A stretch of 19,238 bases of DNA from a virus (IMGVR_UViG_2671181127_000002); one strand, 5' to 3'; numbered from the stretch's first letter, positions 1 to 4,344 are shown. A program made the numbers and translations. The notes: generated from the sequence alone by a model not told the origin.

Positions 1-6
1 TACCAG

Positions 7-213
7 ATGGAAAAAATCACAACAGGTGTGTCATACACCACGTCAGCGGTGGGAACGGGCTACTGGTTCCTGCAGTTGCTGGACAGGGTTTCCCCGTCTC
101 AGTGGGCGGCAATAGGCGTGCTGGGGAGTCTGCTGTTTGGTCTGCTGACATATCTGACGAACCTGTATTTCAAAATTAAAGAAGACCGGCGTAAGGCGGC
201 GCGGGGAGAGTAG
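7..213 (+). CDS. S: Class II holin (pinholin), phage 21 S-like; a longer antiholin start may lie upstream of the window
   Basis: 68-aa ORF with hydrophobic helices (YWFLQLL...[23 protein letters not shown]) and a charged C-terminal tail ([13 protein letters not shown]), closely matching my recollection of phage 21 S. It sits directly upstream of a SAR endolysin. The ATG at 7 is only 6 nt from the window edge, so any dual-start upstream codon cannot be seen. Confidence 0.85.
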
Positions 214-216
214 ACG

Positions 217-852
217 ATGAATAAACAATACGAACTGGTTGTTAAAGGGATAAATAATTACCCGGATAAGATTACTGTTACTGTGGCACTGGAAATTGCC
301 GGGCAGCCGTCGTTGTTGTCGCCATATGTGGCGATTAGTCTTGACCGTACTGAAGGTGCCACGCTGGAATTTTACGAAGCTGAGGCGAAAAAACAGGCGA
401 AGCAGTTTTTCATGGATATTGCTGCCGCTTTATGTGAAGGGGATGAGCAGTCGCCGGAAAAGCGCCCCATAATTTTAGAGGCGCAGGATGTGTTGATAAC
501 CTACAGAGGAAAACTACCGGGAATAATTACTGGTTCTCTGAAGACGCCACCGACGGCATTGCGGTCAAAAAACGATGATATTGAATCACGCATTGAAAAA
601 CTGGAGTGCTATATCGCTGAATTGAAAAAAAGCACCCCAACAAAAAATGAGGTGCTTGCAGCAGATGAAATGAAAGAAACTATTCTTGATCGCGCGGCGC
701 ATCTAAGCTGCGCTTCACGGTTGAAAGAGCATCTTCAGCGGCCTGAAGAAAAACGCCGCGATGAGCAGTTCGCGGCGTTTTACGATTATTGCATTGAAGT
801 TACTCGCAGGAATTTTGTGAAGGCTTTTGAGGAGAGTAAATCTCTTCAGTAA
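217..852 (+). CDS. Hypothetical protein (211 aa), cargo gene inserted between holin and endolysin
   Basis: Intact ORF whose ATG is 3 nt after the holin stop (TAG 211..213), with a GGGGAGAG Shine-Dalgarno-like sequence upstream. It is AT-richer than the flanking phage genes. There is no signal peptide or TM segment; the C-terminal half is charged and helical. I recognise no family. Confidence 0.6.
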   Translation: MNKQYELVVKGINNYPDKITVTVALEIAGQPSLLSPYVAISLDRTEGATLEFYEAEAKKQAKQFFMDIAAALCEGDEQSPEKRPIILEAQDVLITYRGKLPGIITGSLKTPPTALRSKNDDIESRIEKLECYIAELKKSTPTKNEVLAADEMKETILDRAAHLSCASRLKEHLQRPEEKRRDEQFAAFYDYCIEVTRRNFVKAFEESKSLQ

Positions 853-1060
853 GCTTAATGGCGGACGCTGCAATTAATTCAGGAAGGTCCGCAAGGTCAT
901 CTGTCAGTGGGAATGATGAAAAATCGGCGGCAGTTCTGTTAAGAATTGCTTTAACTAATTCCTTTTCCTCATCCGGCAACACGTTGATTAGAGCTACGAC
1001 TGCTTGCCTGAGTGCGATTAAATCAGCAAAAGTTTGTTTTGGTAGATTTGGATAATCCAT
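800..1060 (-). CDS. Hypothetical small acidic protein (86 aa), convergent with and overlapping the 3' end of the 211-aa ORF
   Basis: Taken from the 800..1285 minus-strand ORF, starting at the internal Met (MDYPNLPKQ...) because that ATG (revcomp of 1058..1060) is preceded by GAGGTG at good spacing. Codon usage is AT-rich and the protein is acidic. The longer ORF would run antisense into the endolysin start, so the upstream extension is rejected. Confidence 0.4.
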   Translation of the reverse strand: MDYPNLPKQTFADLIALRQAVVALINVLPDEEKELVKAILNRTAADFSSFPLTDDLADLPELIAASAIKLTEEIYSPQKPSQNSCE

Positions 1061-1171
1061 AGTCACCTCTGTGTTTATCAGATTGACATACCCTGGCCAG
1101 CGCCCACCACTGGCGGGGTGAAGGCTTAACATATCCAGGGATTCGGAACCGATAAATCCTGATAAATATCC

Positions 1172-1705
1172 ATGAACGCAAAAATCAAATACGGCCTGTC
1201 GGCTGCCGTTCTGGCGCTGATTGCCGCAGGGGCTTCTGCGCCTGAAATTCTCGACCAGTTTCTGGATGAAAAGGAAGGTAACCACACCACGGCATACCGT
1301 GATGGTGCAGGTATCTGGACCATCTGCCGTGGTGCCATCATGGTGGATGGCAAACCTGTCGTTCCGGGCATGAAGTTGTCGAAGGAAAAATGCGACCAGG
1401 TTAACGCCATTGAGCGTGATAAAGCGCTGGCGTGGGTGGAGAAAAACATCAGAGTGCCGCTGACCGAACCCCAGAAAGCGGGGATCGCGTCATTCTGTCC
1501 GTATAACATTGGTCCCGGTAAGTGTTTCCCGTCGACGTTTTATAAACGAATTAATGCAGGCGATCGCAGGGGAGCGTGTGAGGCGATTCGCTGGTGGATT
1601 AAGGACGGTGGCAGGGACTGCCGTATCCGCTCAAATAACTGTTACGGTCAGGTATCCCGGCGTGATCAGGAGAGCGCGCTGGCGTGCTGGGGAATCGACA
1701 GATAA
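1172..1705 (+). CDS. R: SAR endolysin (T4-lysozyme-like muramidase, GH24), phage 21 R-like
   Basis: The N-terminus has a weakly hydrophobic Ala/Gly-rich signal-anchor-release segment (YGLSAAVLALIAAGASAP). It is followed by the lysozyme catalytic spacing E-x8-D-x5-T (EGNHTTAYRDGAGIWT). It sits in the lysis cassette with a pinholin, which is the usual partner. Confidence 0.9.
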   Translation: MNAKIKYGLSAAVLALIAAGASAPEILDQFLDEKEGNHTTAYRDGAGIWTICRGAIMVDGKPVVPGMKLSKEKCDQVNAIERDKALAWVEKNIRVPLTEPQKAGIASFCPYNIGPGKCFPSTFYKRINAGDRRGACEAIRWWIKDGGRDCRIRSNNCYGQVSRRDQESALACWGIDR

Positions 1706-1799
1706 GAAGAATATTTTGCTGAAAAATGACGTTGGCCAACGCGGGCGGATAACACGAAATCCTGCGAACTGGCAAAACCTAAGTGAATAAAAGTAAAAA

Positions 1800-1835
1800 C
1801 CCCGTTTGTTGGCAGCAAGCGGGGTTTTGTGTTTC
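1800..1835 (+). terminator. Rho-independent terminator-like hairpin downstream of the endolysin
   Basis: A 9-bp stem (CCCCGTTTG / CAAGCGGGG, one G-U pair) with a 7-nt loop, followed by TTTTGTGTTT and preceded by an A-run. Confidence 0.55.
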
Positions 1836-1861
1836 TGACCTTGGATAAGGCAAGGGAGAAC

Positions 1862-2044
1862 ATGGAAAAGTATAAACGAATTCTGTTGAGGTTGACTATG
1901 AAAAACGGCCTTGAACTGAAAGCGCCTGTAACTGATGACATCAGCAGAGCGCTGGCTTTTGCTATTAAGTGGGTGGCGGTCGGTATTGCTGTGTCTCCGA
2001 TGCTGTATGGACTGGCAAAACTGGTCATTGCGTTGAAATCGTGA
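1862..2044 (+). CDS. Hypothetical small membrane protein (60 aa) between endolysin and Rz
   Basis: ATG at 1862 is preceded by AGGGAGA. The N-terminus is amphipathic and basic; the C-terminus has a hydrophobic segment (FAIKWVAVGIAVSPMLYGLAKLVIAL). The ORF track lists it with a GTG start at 1829 that lies inside the terminator tail, so I prefer 1862. Confidence 0.4.
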   Translation: MEKYKRILLRLTMKNGLELKAPVTDDISRALAFAIKWVAVGIAVSPMLYGLAKLVIALKS

Positions 2045-2056
2045 AGAGGATTAAGC

Positions 2057-2188
2057 ATGTCAGACAAGCTCATAACGCTGGCGAAGATCCTCTGTGTAAT
2101 CGTCGGCATTTCATTTTCACTAATGCTGGTTGCTATTTTTCTTTCCCTGGGCTGGATGATGTTGTCTTCGTCGGGGATGCTGGGGTGA
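2057..2188 (+). CDS. Hypothetical hydrophobic peptide (43 aa), not in the ORF track because it is under 60 aa
   Basis: My own translation from ATG 2057 gives [43 protein letters not shown] with stop TGA at 2186..2188. AAGAGGA sits 5 nt upstream. The start is 12 nt after the previous stop and the stop is 7 nt before the Rz start. It is a single-TM-like peptide. Confidence 0.35.
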
Positions 2189-2195
2189 GGGGGAT

Positions 2196-2663
2196 ATGAA
2201 CCGTGTTCTGTGTGTGGTGATTATTGTCCTGCTGGTGGCCTGTGGTGCGCTTAGTCTGGGGCTGAATCATTACCGCGATAACGCCATCACCTACAAAGCG
2301 CAGCGAGATAAAAAAGCCAGAGAGCTGGAGCTGGCAAACGCAACCATTACTGATATGCAGGTGCGCCAGCGCGATGTTGCTGCGCTCGATGCAAAATACT
2401 CGAGGGAATTAGCTGATGCGAGAGCTGAAAATGAAACTCTGCGTGCTGATGTTGCCGCTGGTCGTAAGCGCCTGCGGATCAACGCCACCTGCCACGGTAC
2501 CGTGCGTGAAGCCACCGGCACCTCCGGCGTGGATAATGCAACCGGCCCCCGACTGGCAGACACCGCTGAACGGGATTATTTCACCCTCAGAGAGCGGTTG
2601 ATGCTGATGCAGAAGCAGCTGGAAGGGGCACAGGACTATATCCGCACTCAGTGCCTGAATTAA
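2196..2663 (+). CDS. Rz: i-spanin Rz
   Basis: N-terminal TM segment followed by a coiled-coil periplasmic domain. Long stretches match lambda Rz as I recall it ([16 protein letters not shown]..., [12 protein letters not shown]..., [15 protein letters not shown]...MQKQLEG). Confidence 0.9.
2416..2601 (+). CDS. Rz1: o-spanin Rz1 (lipoprotein), embedded in the +1 frame of Rz
   Basis: Lies wholly inside Rz in another frame. It has a lipobox (LPLVVSAC) and a proline-rich mature part ([30 protein letters not shown]) that closely matches lambda Rz1. Confidence 0.85.
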
Positions 2664-2666
2664 CAG

Positions 2667-2691
2667 AGCCAGCTTAATCGCTGGCTTTTTC
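2667..2691 (+). terminator. Rho-independent terminator-like hairpin after Rz
   Basis: A 7-bp stem (AGCCAGC / GCTGGCT) with a 6-nt loop, followed by TTTTT, starting 4 nt after the Rz stop. Confidence 0.55.
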
Positions 2692-2738
2692 ATATCTGAA
2701 TTTCACCGCGCATCTCACGCGCATATCACATCCCCGAG

Positions 2739-2830
2739 CCTTTCAGAAAGTTGAGCCTGAGAACTGCCGTATATGGTGGCGACCATCTCGGGGCGGCTTT
2801 TCTGTGAGACAGGCTCAATTTTCTGAAAGG
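2739..2830 (+). promoter_or_regulatory. 21-bp imperfect inverted repeat with a 50-bp spacer directly upstream of the Rha-like gene; right arm overlaps its ribosome-binding region
   Basis: CCTTTCAGAAAGTTGAGCCTG at 2739..2759 against CAGGCTCAATTTTCTGAAAGG at 2810..2830 matches as a reverse complement at 20 of 21 positions. The right arm ends 9 nt before the ATG at 2840. A short direct repeat CGCGCAT(CTCA)CGCGCAT lies just upstream at about 2707..2724. Confidence 0.4.
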
Positions 2831-2839
2831 TAAAACGCG

Positions 2840-3388
2840 ATGAACTATCCGACGATTGTTGACGGTATTGATTTTCGCCAACTGGTAACAGCGGCAGATG
2901 GCGAACCAATAACAGACTCTTTTCAGATCGCTAAGGCGTTTGGTAAGCGTCATGCGGACGTATTGAGGGCGCTGAAAAATTGCCATTGCTCTGAAGATTT
3001 CCGGAGAGCGCATTTTTGCGTTGCCGAAAAAATCAATGAGTTAGGGATTTTCGACAAGAAGCAGATTTACTACCGCATGGACTTTAGCGGCTTCGTTATG
3101 CTGGTTATGGGATTTAACGGGGCAAAAGCTGATGCCGTTAAAGAAGCCTATATTAATGCCTTTAACTGGATGTCCGCTGAACTCCGTAAGTTCAGTGAAA
3201 GTTATGAAGCTGAACGCAACGCTGTAATGCTGGAGTACATGAAAGAGAAAGATGTTGCCAGTATGTCAGGTCGTTTGCTCAATCGCTGGGGCAGGGTGAA
3301 GAAGCCTCAGTTGCTGGCAAGGCTGGACAGGCTGGAGCAGCAGGGGCAGATTGCGTTACCCGGATTTGATAAAGGCATTTCAGCCTGA
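2840..3388 (+). CDS. rha: Rha-family phage regulatory protein (Phage_pRha-like N-terminal domain), often annotated as antirepressor-like
   Basis: The N-terminal region carries the signature I associate with Phage_pRha/Ant N-terminal domains (VTDSFQIAKAFGKRHADVLRALKN). It is AT-richer than the structural genes and sits between Rz and cos, where lambda carries bor. Confidence 0.7.
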   Translation: MNYPTIVDGIDFRQLVTAADGEPITDSFQIAKAFGKRHADVLRALKNCHCSEDFRRAHFCVAEKINELGIFDKKQIYYRMDFSGFVMLVMGFNGAKADAVKEAYINAFNWMSAELRKFSESYEAERNAVMLEYMKEKDVASMSGRLLNRWGRVKKPQLLARLDRLEQQGQIALPGFDKGISA

Positions 3389-3639
3389 CATAGCCATGCG
3401 CCGTATCGTCGCCGTATTCCTGCATTAACAGAGACCGCAGCCCGACAGGGAGACTCCTCTGCGCGAGTGTGCGGGGATAATCAAAAACGATGCACACCGG
3501 GGTTTACCGCGTTAACGGAGCGCGGCGTTGTCCCCTCATAGTCGCTCGTCCGGTGCGATGGTGGAAGAAACTGGATTTTGTTGCAACTGATAACCATTAT
3601 CATTTTCTCGGGTCCTTTCCGGCATATGGACCCGTTACG

Positions 3640-3651
3640 GGGCGGCGACCT
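3640..3651 (+). other. cosN: cosN cohesive-end site (GGGCGGCGACCT), internal to the prophage
   Basis: The 12-nt lambda cohesive-end sequence is present exactly, in lambda-like context (GTTACG before it, CGCGGGTTTTCGCTATTTATGAAAATTTTCCGG after it), about 195 bp upstream of the Nu1 start. Confidence 0.85.
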
Positions 3652-3688
3652 CGCGGGTTTTCGCTATTTATGAAAATTTTCCGGGATC

Positions 3689-3787
3689 CATGTCCGGTTT
3701 ATCTTCAAGTTAACTATATGAAAAATATAAAAACATGCTTTCCATGAACCGGACATGCGCAAAAAATAGACACTAAAACCGGACATG
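3689..3787 (+). promoter_or_regulatory. cosB: cosB-like region: three copies of AACCGGACATG arranged as R3 (inverted), an AT-rich IHF-like spacer, then R2 and R1 (direct)
   Basis: The motif occurs inverted at 3689..3699 and direct at 3747..3757 and 3777..3787. An AT-rich stretch lies between the first and second copies. Offsets from cosN and from the Nu1 start mirror lambda's R3-I1-R2-R1 layout, but the repeat sequence is not lambda's. Confidence 0.55.
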
Positions 3788-3834
3788 ACCGGTTTTGTTG
3801 TGATTGTGAGGTGAGAGTTTTTGCGAGGTGAGGA

Positions 3835-4344
3835 GTGGCTACGCAGACTGAAGTTGCCAGGCATTTAAGTCTGACCGATCGCCAGCTTCGCAGATTGCAG
3901 AAATTGCCGGGTGCCCCGATATCGAATAAGCGAGGGCAACTGGATCTGGATGCCTGGCGCGATTTTTACATATCGTATCTGAGAAGAAGTAAAAACGATG
4001 TGCCTGATGGCGATAGCGAAGACGACTATGAGGAGAAATTGCTTATTGCCAGATGGGAACTGACAGCAGAACAGGCTGTTACACAGCAGTTAAAAAATGA
4101 GGTGTCAAAAGGAAAACTTATTGACACCGGGTTCTGTATTTTTGCCCTCAGCAAGCTGGCAATGGCGTTATCCAGTACGCTTGATTCCATCCCTTTATCC
4201 ATGCAGCGACAGTTTCCTGATTTAACACCGCGCCATCTTGACCATCTGAAAACCCTTATTGCGAAGGGGGCAAATCAGTGTGCGCGGGCGGGGGATAAAT
4301 TACCGGATTTACTCGATGAATATATCAGAGCAACAACTGAATAA
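3835..4344 (+). CDS. nu1: Terminase small subunit (gpNu1-like)
   Basis: GTG start preceded by GAGGTGAGGA. The C-terminal two-thirds matches lambda Nu1 as I recall it (FCIFALSKLA...LSMQRQFPDL..RHLDHLK....LPDLLDEYI). The N-terminal DNA-binding region is divergent, consistent with the altered cosB repeats. Confidence 0.9.
   Translation: MATQTEVARHLSLTDRQLRRLQKLPGAPISNKRGQLDLDAWRDFYISYLRRSKNDVPDGDSEDDYEEKLLIARWELTAEQAVTQQLKNEVSKGKLIDTGFCIFALSKLAMALSSTLDSIPLSMQRQFPDLTPRHLDHLKTLIAKGANQCARAGDKLPDLLDEYIRATTE

What the first reader, a model, noticed from the sequence alone, without database searches (positions are those of the whole stretch)
217..852. Unknown 211-aa cargo protein translationally coupled to the holin, inside the lysis cassette
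The canonical phage-21-type cassette is S-R-Rz/Rz1 with holin and endolysin adjacent. Here an intact 211-aa ORF starts 3 nt after the holin stop with its own Shine-Dalgarno sequence, so it should be co-expressed with the lysis genes. It is AT-richer than the surrounding phage genes, which suggests a horizontally acquired moron. It has no signal peptide, TM segment or catalytic motif I can recognise. A cytoplasmic protein placed here would be made exactly when the cell is about to lyse, which fits a lysis-timing regulator, a lysis-released effector, or a defence/anti-defence function. This is the best candidate in the window for an undescribed function.
Basis: partly seen in the sequence, partly recalled or inferred. 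Interest (0 to 1): 0.6.

Follow-up and report, generated by a model that had tools for sequence, protein, structure and literature searches.

The report
YdfR-family gene between holin and endolysin
The 211-codon gene is real, but it is not unknown cargo: it belongs to the YdfR/DUF1327 family, an accessory gene found after the holin in the prophage lysis cassettes of more than half of complete E. coli genomes, and its biochemical role is still unproven.

Summary
An intact 211-aa ORF (217-852, +) starts 3 nt after the stop of a phage-21-type holin. A GGAG lies inside the holin's last codons. The ORF has no TM segment and has 45% GC against 54-55% in its neighbours.

It is not an undescribed cargo gene. 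Residues 1-112 match Pfam DUF1327 (E 7e-40). A 99%-identical NCBI cluster is named 'YdfR family protein'. At least 2882 of 5426 complete E. coli genomes carry related DNA, always as holin, then YdfR, then lysozyme. Phage 933W has nearly the same holin, with the same C-terminal tail, directly followed by R, so the gene is accessory.

The family is narrow (62 clusters in 1.84 billion proteins) and mosaic. It has a conserved 76-aa N-domain (three strands and a helix, pLDDT 87), a linker, and interchangeable tails. No significant structural relative was found.

The only experimental lead is Göpel et al. 2026: K-12 YdfR residues 1-72 (45% identical here) bind the catalytic half of RNase E and co-purify with RNA. 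My best guess is a late-made RNase E-docking protein (about 0.25). A cytoplasmic antiholin is the main rival.

Already known, function open, low interest.

The parts
7..213 (+). Class II (phage-21 S-type) pinholin, 68-aa form. The ATG of the longer dual-start form lies just left of the window.
   Evidence: Pfam PF04971 E 6e-33 and PHROG holin families. MYQME start seen in relatives and in STEC2018-607 upstream DNA.
203..210 (+). GGGGAGAG Shine-Dalgarno-like element inside the last holin codons, serving whichever gene follows the holin.
   Evidence: Read directly. The same GGGGAGAG-stop-3/4 nt-ATG junction precedes ydfR in most of the 15 loci (three have GAGAGGAGAG and one GAGAAGAGAG) and precedes R in 933W.
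217..852 (+). YdfR-family (DUF1327) gene, 211 aa, long-tail variant.
   Evidence: Pfam PF07041 E 6.6e-40; PHROGs 2091/1085/406. 99% identical to an NCBI cluster of 644 sequences named 'YdfR family protein'.
217..444 (+). Conserved N-domain (residues 1-76): strands 5-14, 18-27 and 37-43, then helix 50-74. Carries the near-invariant motifs YELVVKG..N and DRxEGAxLEFYEA. Acidic (pI 4.6).
   Evidence: AlphaFold2 on a 48-sequence alignment: pLDDT 87.3, pTM 0.75. Conservation. 45% identical to K-12 YdfR residues 1-74. dN/dS about 0.2.
445..552 (+). Linker and mid-module (residues 77-112, EKRPIILEAQDVLITYRGKLPGIITGSLKTPP). Still inside the Pfam DUF1327 model. Recombination joints lie at LCEGDE and at SLKTPP.
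   Evidence: pLDDT 23-38 in the full-length model. Alternative mid-modules and 114-116-aa forms ending right after SLKTPP. Near-identical DNA here next to a highly diverged N-domain in L007.
553..852 (+). Helical, probably coiled-coil C-terminal tail (residues 113-211). Ends in the shared tail ...RRDEQFAAFYDYCIEVTRRNFVKAFEESKSLQ.
   Evidence: Predicted helices 122-138, 143-173 and 181-209 at low confidence. Weak GCN4-type match. The same ending occurs in 169-, 176-, 183-, 195- and 211-aa forms. One protein joins this tail to an unrelated N-terminus (P0150).
633..716 (+). 84-nt (28-codon) in-frame segment present in 211-aa and 305-330-aa forms and absent from 183-aa forms. Boundaries are approximate.
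   Evidence: MAFFT of ORF DNA from seven loci shows a single 84-nt gap at ORF column 417. The same residues occur in Stx2_95, P0004 and P0009.
800..1060 (-). Convergent 86-aa ORF (ATG at 1060, stop at 802-800). It overlaps the last 17 codons of the YdfR gene and travels with this tail type.
   Evidence: PHROG 2572 E 3.6e-50, unknown function. Annotated in RefSeq as WP_001625288.1. Present in L001 and L005-L009. dN/dS 0.45-0.75 on very few changes, so inconclusive.
630..657 (-). Terminator-like hairpin with a T-run on the minus strand, inside the YdfR tail and downstream of the convergent ORF. Possibly chance.
   Evidence: Scan: 5 terminator-like sites found against 2.2 +/- 1.5 expected. It lies in the 84-nt segment that 183-aa forms lack.
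1172..1705 (+). SAR-type endolysin R, displaced 320 nt from the YdfR stop. It is preceded by a conserved SD-less ATAAATATCC leader.
   Evidence: Pfam Phage_lysozyme E 3e-24; PHROG 7 endolysin. Leader comparison across 13 loci.

Best explanation
Identity (confidence about 0.97): the ORF is a full-length member of the YdfR/DUF1327 family. This is the accessory gene that sits directly after the class II (S21-type) pinholin and before the SAR endolysin in lambdoid prophages of Escherichia, Shigella and Salmonella.

Expression (inferred from the sequence): it is made from the Q-dependent late transcript. It uses the ribosome-binding site embedded in the end of the holin gene, which in YdfR-less cassettes such as 933W serves the endolysin. 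It is therefore produced together with the lysis proteins.

Role in lysis (inferred, about 0.8): it is dispensable for lysis itself, because nearly the same holin and a related lysozyme work without it in 933W.

Mechanism (inferred, about 0.25-0.3):
- The conserved 76-residue N-domain (three strands and a helix) is a docking module for the catalytic N-terminal half of host RNase E, and more weakly RNase G. This was reported for K-12 YdfR residues 1-72.
- The interchangeable tail, here a helical and probably coiled-coil tail, would oligomerise or retarget the protein.
- The protein would then adjust processing or decay of RNA late in infection, for example of the long late transcript that also carries S, R and Rz.

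What is shown: family membership, synteny, coupling signals, the predicted fold, and purifying selection on the N-domain. What is borrowed from a homologue: RNase E binding. What is pure inference: any effect on RNA decay or lysis.
For: - Pfam DUF1327 at 135.7 bits over residues 1-112. 99%-identical 'YdfR family protein' cluster.
- Same holin-YdfR-lysozyme order in every locus inspected.
- A conserved purine-rich stop-ATG junction (GGGGAGAG in most loci) shared with the S-R junction of 933W.
- N-domain model at pLDDT 87, with dN/dS about 0.2.
- 45% identity to K-12 YdfR over residues 1-74, with the near-invariant motifs shared.
- Göpel et al. 2026 (PMC13232886). YdfR(1-72) was isolated three times in a two-hybrid screen with RNase G as bait. 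Full-length YdfR interacts with Rne(1-597). Rne(1-598) co-purifies with Strep-YdfR. The YdfR eluate holds DNase-resistant nucleic acid.
- Phage proteins that target RNase E are a known theme: T4 Srd binds the catalytic half; T7 gp0.7; phiKZ Dip (PMC4980113).
Against: - The RNase E data concern a homologue only 45% identical, with a different tail.
- Those data rest on overproduction. The co-purification had no nuclease control, so it may be bridged by RNA.
- YdfR overproduction changed few transcripts and did not affect growth.
- The N-domain here is acidic (pI 4.6). The basic tail of K-12 YdfR, which might explain its RNA co-purification, is absent.
- Strict linkage to the pinholin could instead point to a lysis-specific role.
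Confidence: 0.3

Rival explanations
1. Cytoplasmic lysis-timing regulator. The protein binds the basic cytoplasmic C-tail of the pinholin, or the nascent SAR endolysin, and delays or sharpens triggering. It would work like the TM-less antiholins LydB of P1 and RIII of T4.
For: - It always lies 3-4 nt after an S21-type holin and is co-translated with it.
- It has no TM segment and an acidic N-domain (pI 4.6), facing an invariant basic holin tail [13 protein letters not shown].
- Precedents. P1 lydB lies directly downstream of holin lydA, has no TM domain, and delays lysis in a SAR-endolysin system (PMC9025707; gene order). T4 RIII is a cytoplasmic antiholin (PMC8385771).
- The Keio ydfR mutant appears in the envelope-leakage hit lists of Paradis-Bleau 2014 (supplements).
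Against: - No sequence or profile similarity to LydB.
- The holin tail is the same (one K/R difference at most) whether YdfR is absent (933W) or present as either N-domain allele, so there is no co-variation.
- The Keio phenotype may be a polar effect of the cassette on the downstream lysozyme rrrQ (my inference).
- No experiment links any YdfR protein to lysis timing.
Confidence: 0.17
2. Lysis-released effector, or a defence, anti-defence or superinfection-exclusion protein. The constant N-domain would carry polymorphic C-terminal modules, as in polymorphic effector families.
For: - Tails are highly variable: total lengths run from 72 to 333 aa, with at least four unrelated C-terminal domains.
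- Lower GC and a presence/absence polymorphism.
- It is made just before lysis.
Against: - No match in PADLOC.
- No Pfam, PDB or annotated PHROG match for any tail.
- N-domain-only forms (72-116 aa) are the commonest, so the conserved function lies in the N-domain, not in the cargo tails.
- K-12 YdfR is not toxic when overproduced.
- The only small neighbouring genes seen, convergent ORFs in the window-type cassettes and in phage Evi, are missing next to the long forms, so nothing behaves like an immunity gene.
Confidence: 0.1
3. The gene, or at least its tail beyond codon 114, is a decaying remnant. RefSeq's PGAP marks it as a pseudogene ('incomplete; missing C-terminus') and annotates only codons 1-114 next to the convergent ORF.
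For: - PGAP pseudogene flags in six genomes.
- Weak constraint on the tail: dN/dS 0.5-0.76.
- Low AlphaFold confidence beyond residue 76.
- 114-116-aa forms are common.
Against: - The 211-codon frame is open in all relatives translated.
- Tail variants differ only by in-frame indels and keep the same last 35 residues across N-domain alleles.
- The same tail modules are part of 305-330-aa proteins and of a protein with a different N-terminus.
- NCBI also holds the 211-aa protein as a named cluster of 644 sequences.
- The N-domain is under clear purifying selection.
Confidence: 0.07

Closest known systems
YdfR of the E. coli K-12 Qin prophage (P76160; Pfam DUF1327, PF07041; NCBI 'YdfR family protein')
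   Same: Same family and the same position between a class II holin (essD/essQ) and the lysozyme rrrQ. 45% identity over residues 1-74, with the conserved motifs shared. That N-terminal part is the one reported to bind RNase E.
   Different: K-12 YdfR is 103 aa with a short basic tail, and its stop overlaps the lysozyme start. The window protein has the mid-module, a roughly 100-aa helical tail and a convergent ORF before the lysozyme.
114-116-aa YdfR proteins of Stx1a, Stx2c and some Stx2a phages (e.g. YP_009909078 of Stx2a_WGPS2) and the 329-aa form of Stx2_95
   Same: 88.8% identical over residues 1-116, with the same junction to the holin. The 329-aa form shares the window's tail up to ...FAAFYDYC.
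   Different: The short forms end right after SLKTPP. The long forms continue into an unrelated 120-aa domain instead of the ...IEVTRRNFVKAFEESKSLQ ending, and lack the convergent ORF.
Phage proteins that target RNase E: T4 Srd (binds the catalytic N-terminal half and stimulates it), T7 gp0.7, phiKZ Dip
   Same: A phage-encoded small protein reported, for the K-12 homologue, to bind the RNase E N-terminal half.
   Different: Those are early or middle genes of virulent phages with shown effects on RNA decay. YdfR is a late gene of temperate phages with no shown effect. Homology to Srd was not tested and none is expected.
TM-less antiholins: P1 LydB and T4 RIII
   Same: A soluble protein encoded next to a holin and co-expressed with it. 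P1 also uses a SAR endolysin.
   Different: No sequence or profile similarity to LydB. No lysis-timing phenotype is known for any YdfR protein.
dsRBD-like and Rad52-like beta-beta-beta-alpha folds
   Different: There is no helix before strand 1 and no Pfam dsrm match. The helix N-terminus is acidic. Foldseek finds nothing significant. This is topology only, not membership.

Membership tests
DUF1327 / YdfR family (PF07041) | Sequence scores above the Pfam gathering threshold for DUF1327. | tested here: met
   135.7 bits against a cut-off of 25, E 6.6e-40, residues 1-112 on model positions 1-92 of 93.
DUF1327 / YdfR family (PF07041) | Family-wide near-invariant residues are present (Y5 E6 L7 V9 K10 G11 N14; D43 R44 E46 G47 A48 L50 E51 F52 Y53 E54 A55). 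| tested here: met
   All are present in the window protein, which is the first row of alignments A1 (50 sequences) and A2 (48 sequences).
DUF1327 / YdfR family (PF07041) | The gene lies directly after a class II (S21-type) holin and before the lysozyme of a lambdoid lysis cassette. | tested here: met
   Window and 14 other loci including K-12 Qin.
DUF1327 / YdfR family (PF07041) | Binds the N-terminal half of RNase E. This is reported only for K-12 YdfR and is not a curated family feature. | not testable with these tools
   Only homology to the binding region is available: 45% identity over residues 1-74 (PMC13232886).
Moron (independently expressed prophage cargo gene) | Deviant base composition and presence/absence between otherwise similar phages. 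| tested here: met
   GC 45.1% against 54-55% in neighbours. Absent in 933W at the same junction.
Moron (independently expressed prophage cargo gene) | Own promoter and terminator that allow expression from the repressed prophage. | tested here: not met
   No promoter-like site on the + strand upstream, and no + strand terminator after the ORF. The start is coupled to the holin stop. The scan covers sigma-70 consensus sites only.
Cytoplasmic antiholin (P1 LydB type) | Sequence or profile similarity to LydB. | tested here: not met
   BLASTP E 1.4; hhalign probability 0.05%.
Cytoplasmic antiholin (P1 LydB type) | TM-less protein encoded next to the holin and co-expressed with it. | tested here: met
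   Maximum hydropathy 1.05. 3-nt gap after the holin stop.
Cytoplasmic antiholin (P1 LydB type) | Delays holin triggering. | not testable with these tools
   Needs induction curves of a non-polar deletion.
Double-stranded RNA-binding domain (dsRBD) | Alpha-beta-beta-beta-alpha topology and a dsrm profile match. | tested here: not met
Known anti-phage defence systems (PADLOC) | Match to a defence-system protein model. | tested here: not met
   Only a chance-level Cmr5 hit, E 0.018 at 13.6 bits.

The most novel reading that the evidence does not exclude
DUF1327/YdfR proteins would be a widespread, so far unrecognised class of temperate-phage modulators of host RNase E. They would be made together with the lysis proteins and fitted with swappable tails. 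They would tune the stability or processing of the late transcript, and so lysis timing, burst size and, in Stx phages, possibly toxin output. The SD-less, A/U-rich leader of the endolysin gene that always follows YdfR could be one of their targets.
Probability: 0.15. Interest if true: 0.6.

Novelty: already known. Interest (0 to 1): 0.2.

Why it matters
As a sequence feature it is ordinary. The protein is already in Pfam, PHROGs and RefSeq under a family name and occurs in thousands of E. coli genomes.

What remains open is its function. A gene occupies the best-coupled slot of the lysis cassette in most E. coli lambdoid prophages, including Stx1a and Stx2c phages, and nobody knows what it does. 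The 2026 report that K-12 YdfR binds the catalytic half of RNase E makes this directly testable.

A practical point: RefSeq's PGAP flags this long-tail variant as a truncated pseudogene, although the 211-codon frame is intact and conserved.

Tried and rejected
Searches that gave nothing useful:
- NCBIfam and PADLOC gave nothing for the ORF.
- PDB sequence search gave only a coiled-coil-type GCN4 hit at E 0.13.
- The full-length AlphaFold model was too poor beyond residue 76 (pLDDT 55.9), so I modelled the N-domain separately.
- The afdb50 library was not available.
- Exhaustive phmmer over 1.84 billion representatives found only 62 clusters, all family fragments or variants, so no remote relatives could suggest a function.
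- The C-terminal domains of long family members had no Pfam, PDB or annotated PHROG match.

Hypotheses tested and dropped:
- P1 LydB shows no similarity.
- Co-variation between the holin C-tail and the YdfR allele: the tail is essentially invariant (one K/R difference), so the test is uninformative.
- A holin-YdfR read-through fusion: the two are in frame here, but the gap is 4 nt in most relatives, and the fusion proteins in the databases are deletions or frameshifts.

Side checks:
- Rfam on 1-4000 gave only chance-level hits.
- An RNA fold of the endolysin leader showed no structure beyond shuffles (z 0.68).
- dN/dS of the convergent ORF rests on too few substitutions to decide.
- The main text of Paradis-Bleau 2014 does not mention ydfR; it appears only in the supplementary hit lists.

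Full report
**1. Observation**

The window starts inside a lambdoid late operon.
- ORF 7-213 is a phage-21-type class II holin (Pfam Phage_holin_2_1, E 6e-33; PHROG holin families).
- Its TAG stop is at 211-213. After three bases the ATG at 217 opens a 211-codon ORF that ends with TAA at 850-852.
- GGGGAGAG at 203-210 places a GGAG 8 nt before that ATG.
- The protein has no hydrophobic stretch (maximum 19-residue Kyte-Doolittle mean 1.05) and a pI of 5.5.
- GC is 45.1% (GC3 44%), against 54% (GC3 65%) for the holin, 54.5% (GC3 60%) for the endolysin at 1172-1705, 55% for Rz, and 54.7% for the window.

One detail to add: the holin's first start codon (MYQME..., the dual-start motif) lies 3 nt to the left of the window.

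**2. Identity**

- Residues 1-112 match Pfam DUF1327 (PF07041) at 135.7 bits, E 6.6e-40, against a cut-off of 25.
- The whole protein matches PHROGs 2091, 1085 and 406, all of unknown function.
- A 211-aa cluster that is 99% identical, with 644 member sequences, is named 'YdfR family protein [Escherichia coli]' by NCBI.
- The window is 99.9% identical over 1-1720 to a prophage in E. coli STEC2018-607. That prophage is lambda-like, running from integrase to gpJ.
- The window is 97.5% identical to phage PhiR5_1, where the gene is annotated 'DUF1327 containing protein'.
- The family namesake, ydfR of the K-12 Qin prophage, sits in the same place between the holin and the lysozyme rrrQ. It is 45% identical over residues 1-74.

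**3. How common it is**

- DNA at least about 80% identical to part of the ORF occurs in 2882 of 5426 complete E. coli genomes, with up to 8 copies per genome. Only 144 genomes carry at least 80% of this long variant. This is a lower bound, because diverged alleles such as the K-12 one escape megablast.
- In an evenly spaced sample of 30 of the 4373 records that match the holin-to-lysozyme stretch, 28 list a YdfR/DUF1327 gene under the match.
- Among deposited phages, tblastn finds it in 101 records, all Escherichia or Stx phages. The cassette DNA matches 457 records.
- Phage 933W has S and R adjacent with a 4-nt gap. The GGGGAGAG-stop-NNNN-ATG junction is the same there.
- So the gene is accessory. 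It occupies the coupled slot that otherwise belongs to the endolysin.
- Outside the enterobacterial prophage world the family barely exists. An exhaustive phmmer over 1.84 billion representatives gives 62 clusters at E of 0.001 or better.

**4. Anatomy and evolution**

The family is mosaic.

*N-domain (residues 1-76).*
- It is always present and can stand alone, as in the 72-aa form of phage Evi.
- It comes in at least two diverged alleles, MNKQYELVVKGINNYPDK... and MTQNYELIVKGIRNFENK....
- AlphaFold2 on a 48-sequence alignment gives pLDDT 87.3 and pTM 0.75. The model has strands 5-14, 18-27 and 37-43 and a helix at 50-74.
- Near-invariant residues cluster in YELVVKG..N and DRxEGAxLEFYEA.
- Against a diverged allele, dN/dS is about 0.2.

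*Mid-module and joints.*
- After the conserved linker LCEGDE comes a mid-module (77-112), which is modelled poorly.
- Many proteins end right after SLKTPP, at 114-116 aa.

*The window's tail.*
- The window protein continues into a helical tail with predicted helices 122-138, 143-173 and 181-209 at low confidence. It gives a weak GCN4-type coiled-coil match.
- It shares an 84-nt in-frame segment with the 305-330-aa forms.
- It shares its last 35 residues with the 169-, 176-, 183- and 195-aa forms.
- The tail is weakly constrained (dN/dS 0.5-0.76). However, the frame is kept through every indel.
- The same modules occur in other protein contexts, including one with an unrelated N-terminus.
- I therefore take the tail as coding.
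- RefSeq's PGAP nevertheless annotates only codons 1-114 and flags the gene 'incomplete; missing C-terminus' in six genomes. I read that as an annotation artefact.

**5. Surroundings**

- A convergent 86-aa ORF (803-1060, minus strand; PHROG 2572; WP_001625288.1) overlaps the last 17 codons and travels with this tail type.
- Phage Evi has a different convergent ORF at the same place.
- A terminator-like hairpin on the minus strand (657-630) lies downstream of the convergent ORF, inside the YdfR tail. Such sites are only about twice as frequent as in shuffles.
- No promoter-like site precedes ydfR on the + strand.
- The endolysin gene that follows YdfR has no Shine-Dalgarno sequence in any locus. 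It has a conserved ATAAATATCC leader instead. The RNA there is not unusually structured.

**6. Function**

No tool gave an activity.
- NCBIfam, PADLOC and the PDB sequence search were negative.
- Foldseek found nothing significant in PDB or BFVD.
- The model lacks the first dsRBD helix, and Pfam gives no dsrm hit.

The one experimental lead is Göpel et al., RNA Biol 2026 (PMC13232886).
- A two-hybrid library screen with RNase G as bait isolated YdfR(1-72) three times.
- Full-length YdfR interacted with Rne(1-597).
- FLAG-Rne(1-598) co-eluted with Strep-YdfR.
- The eluate was rich in DNase-resistant nucleic acid.
- Overproduction changed few transcripts and did not slow growth.
- No nuclease control was done for YdfR.

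Phage proteins that act on RNase E are an established theme: T4 Srd on the catalytic half, T7 gp0.7 and phiKZ Dip (PMC4980113).

On this basis my best-supported mechanism is a late-made protein whose N-domain docks on the RNase E catalytic half. I give it only about 0.25-0.3.

The main rival is a cytoplasmic antiholin.
- P1 LydB is TM-less, is encoded right after holin lydA, and works in a SAR-endolysin system (PMC9025707). T4 RIII is also cytoplasmic (PMC8385771).
- This rival rests on position alone. There is no similarity to LydB.
- The holin tail is the same (one K/R difference at most) with or without YdfR.
- The Keio ydfR mutant appears in the envelope-leakage hit lists of Paradis-Bleau 2014. 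This may reflect polarity on the downstream lysozyme (my inference).

**7. Verdict**

The gene is a routine, named, very common accessory gene of S21-type lysis cassettes, not a newly seen cargo gene. Its function is open, and there is now a testable RNase E lead. Novelty: already known. Interest: low.

Noticed in passing
window 800-1060 (minus strand): A convergent 86-aa ORF (PHROG 2572, unknown function; RefSeq WP_001625288.1) lies inside the late operon. It overlaps the last 17 codons of the YdfR gene and is always linked to this tail type. Phage Evi has an unrelated convergent ORF at the same spot. This slot, rather than ydfR, looks like the moron position. No promoter was found by the consensus scan.
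   Followed up: partly
window 1140-1171, and the same position in 12 related loci: The endolysin allele that follows YdfR has no Shine-Dalgarno sequence. It has a conserved A/T-rich leader, (G)ATAAATATCC-ATGAAC, even where the upstream context differs (K-12 Qin, Stx2_95). In 933W the endolysin uses the GGAG embedded in the holin instead. The RNA fold is not unusual (z 0.68).
   Followed up: partly
window 1706-2195: The R-Rz gap holds a strong hairpin with a T-run (1796-1828, 15 pairs) and two small hydrophobic ORFs: 1862-2044 (60 aa, PHROG 1115) and 2057-2188 (43 aa, PHROG 4906), both of unknown function. Other phages carry ant or other genes here, so this is a second variable slot in the lysis cassette.
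   Followed up: no
   Followed up: yes
window 1-6 and the 3 bases to its left: The holin has the phage-21 dual-start motif (MYQMEK...). The first ATG lies just outside the window, so only the 68-aa form is complete in the window.
   Followed up: yes
window 2840-3388: A 182-aa Rha/antirepressor-like ORF is intact in the window but annotated as frameshifted in the 99.9%-identical STEC2018-607 prophage. The two sequences go out of register near window position 3032.
   Followed up: no
window 568: There is a single substitution in the ORF relative to the STEC2018-607 prophage. It gives K118, where every sequenced relative I compared has E (LRSKNDD against LRSEN/KDD).
   Followed up: no
proteins P0150, P0161, P0004 and P0009 (family members outside the window): The YdfR tail modules also occur behind an unrelated N-terminus (P0150). 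YdfR N-domains carry at least three unrelated 100-130-aa C-terminal domains with no Pfam or PDB match. This is extreme intragenic mosaicism, with joints at LCEGDE, SLKTPP and FAAFYDYC.
   Followed up: partly
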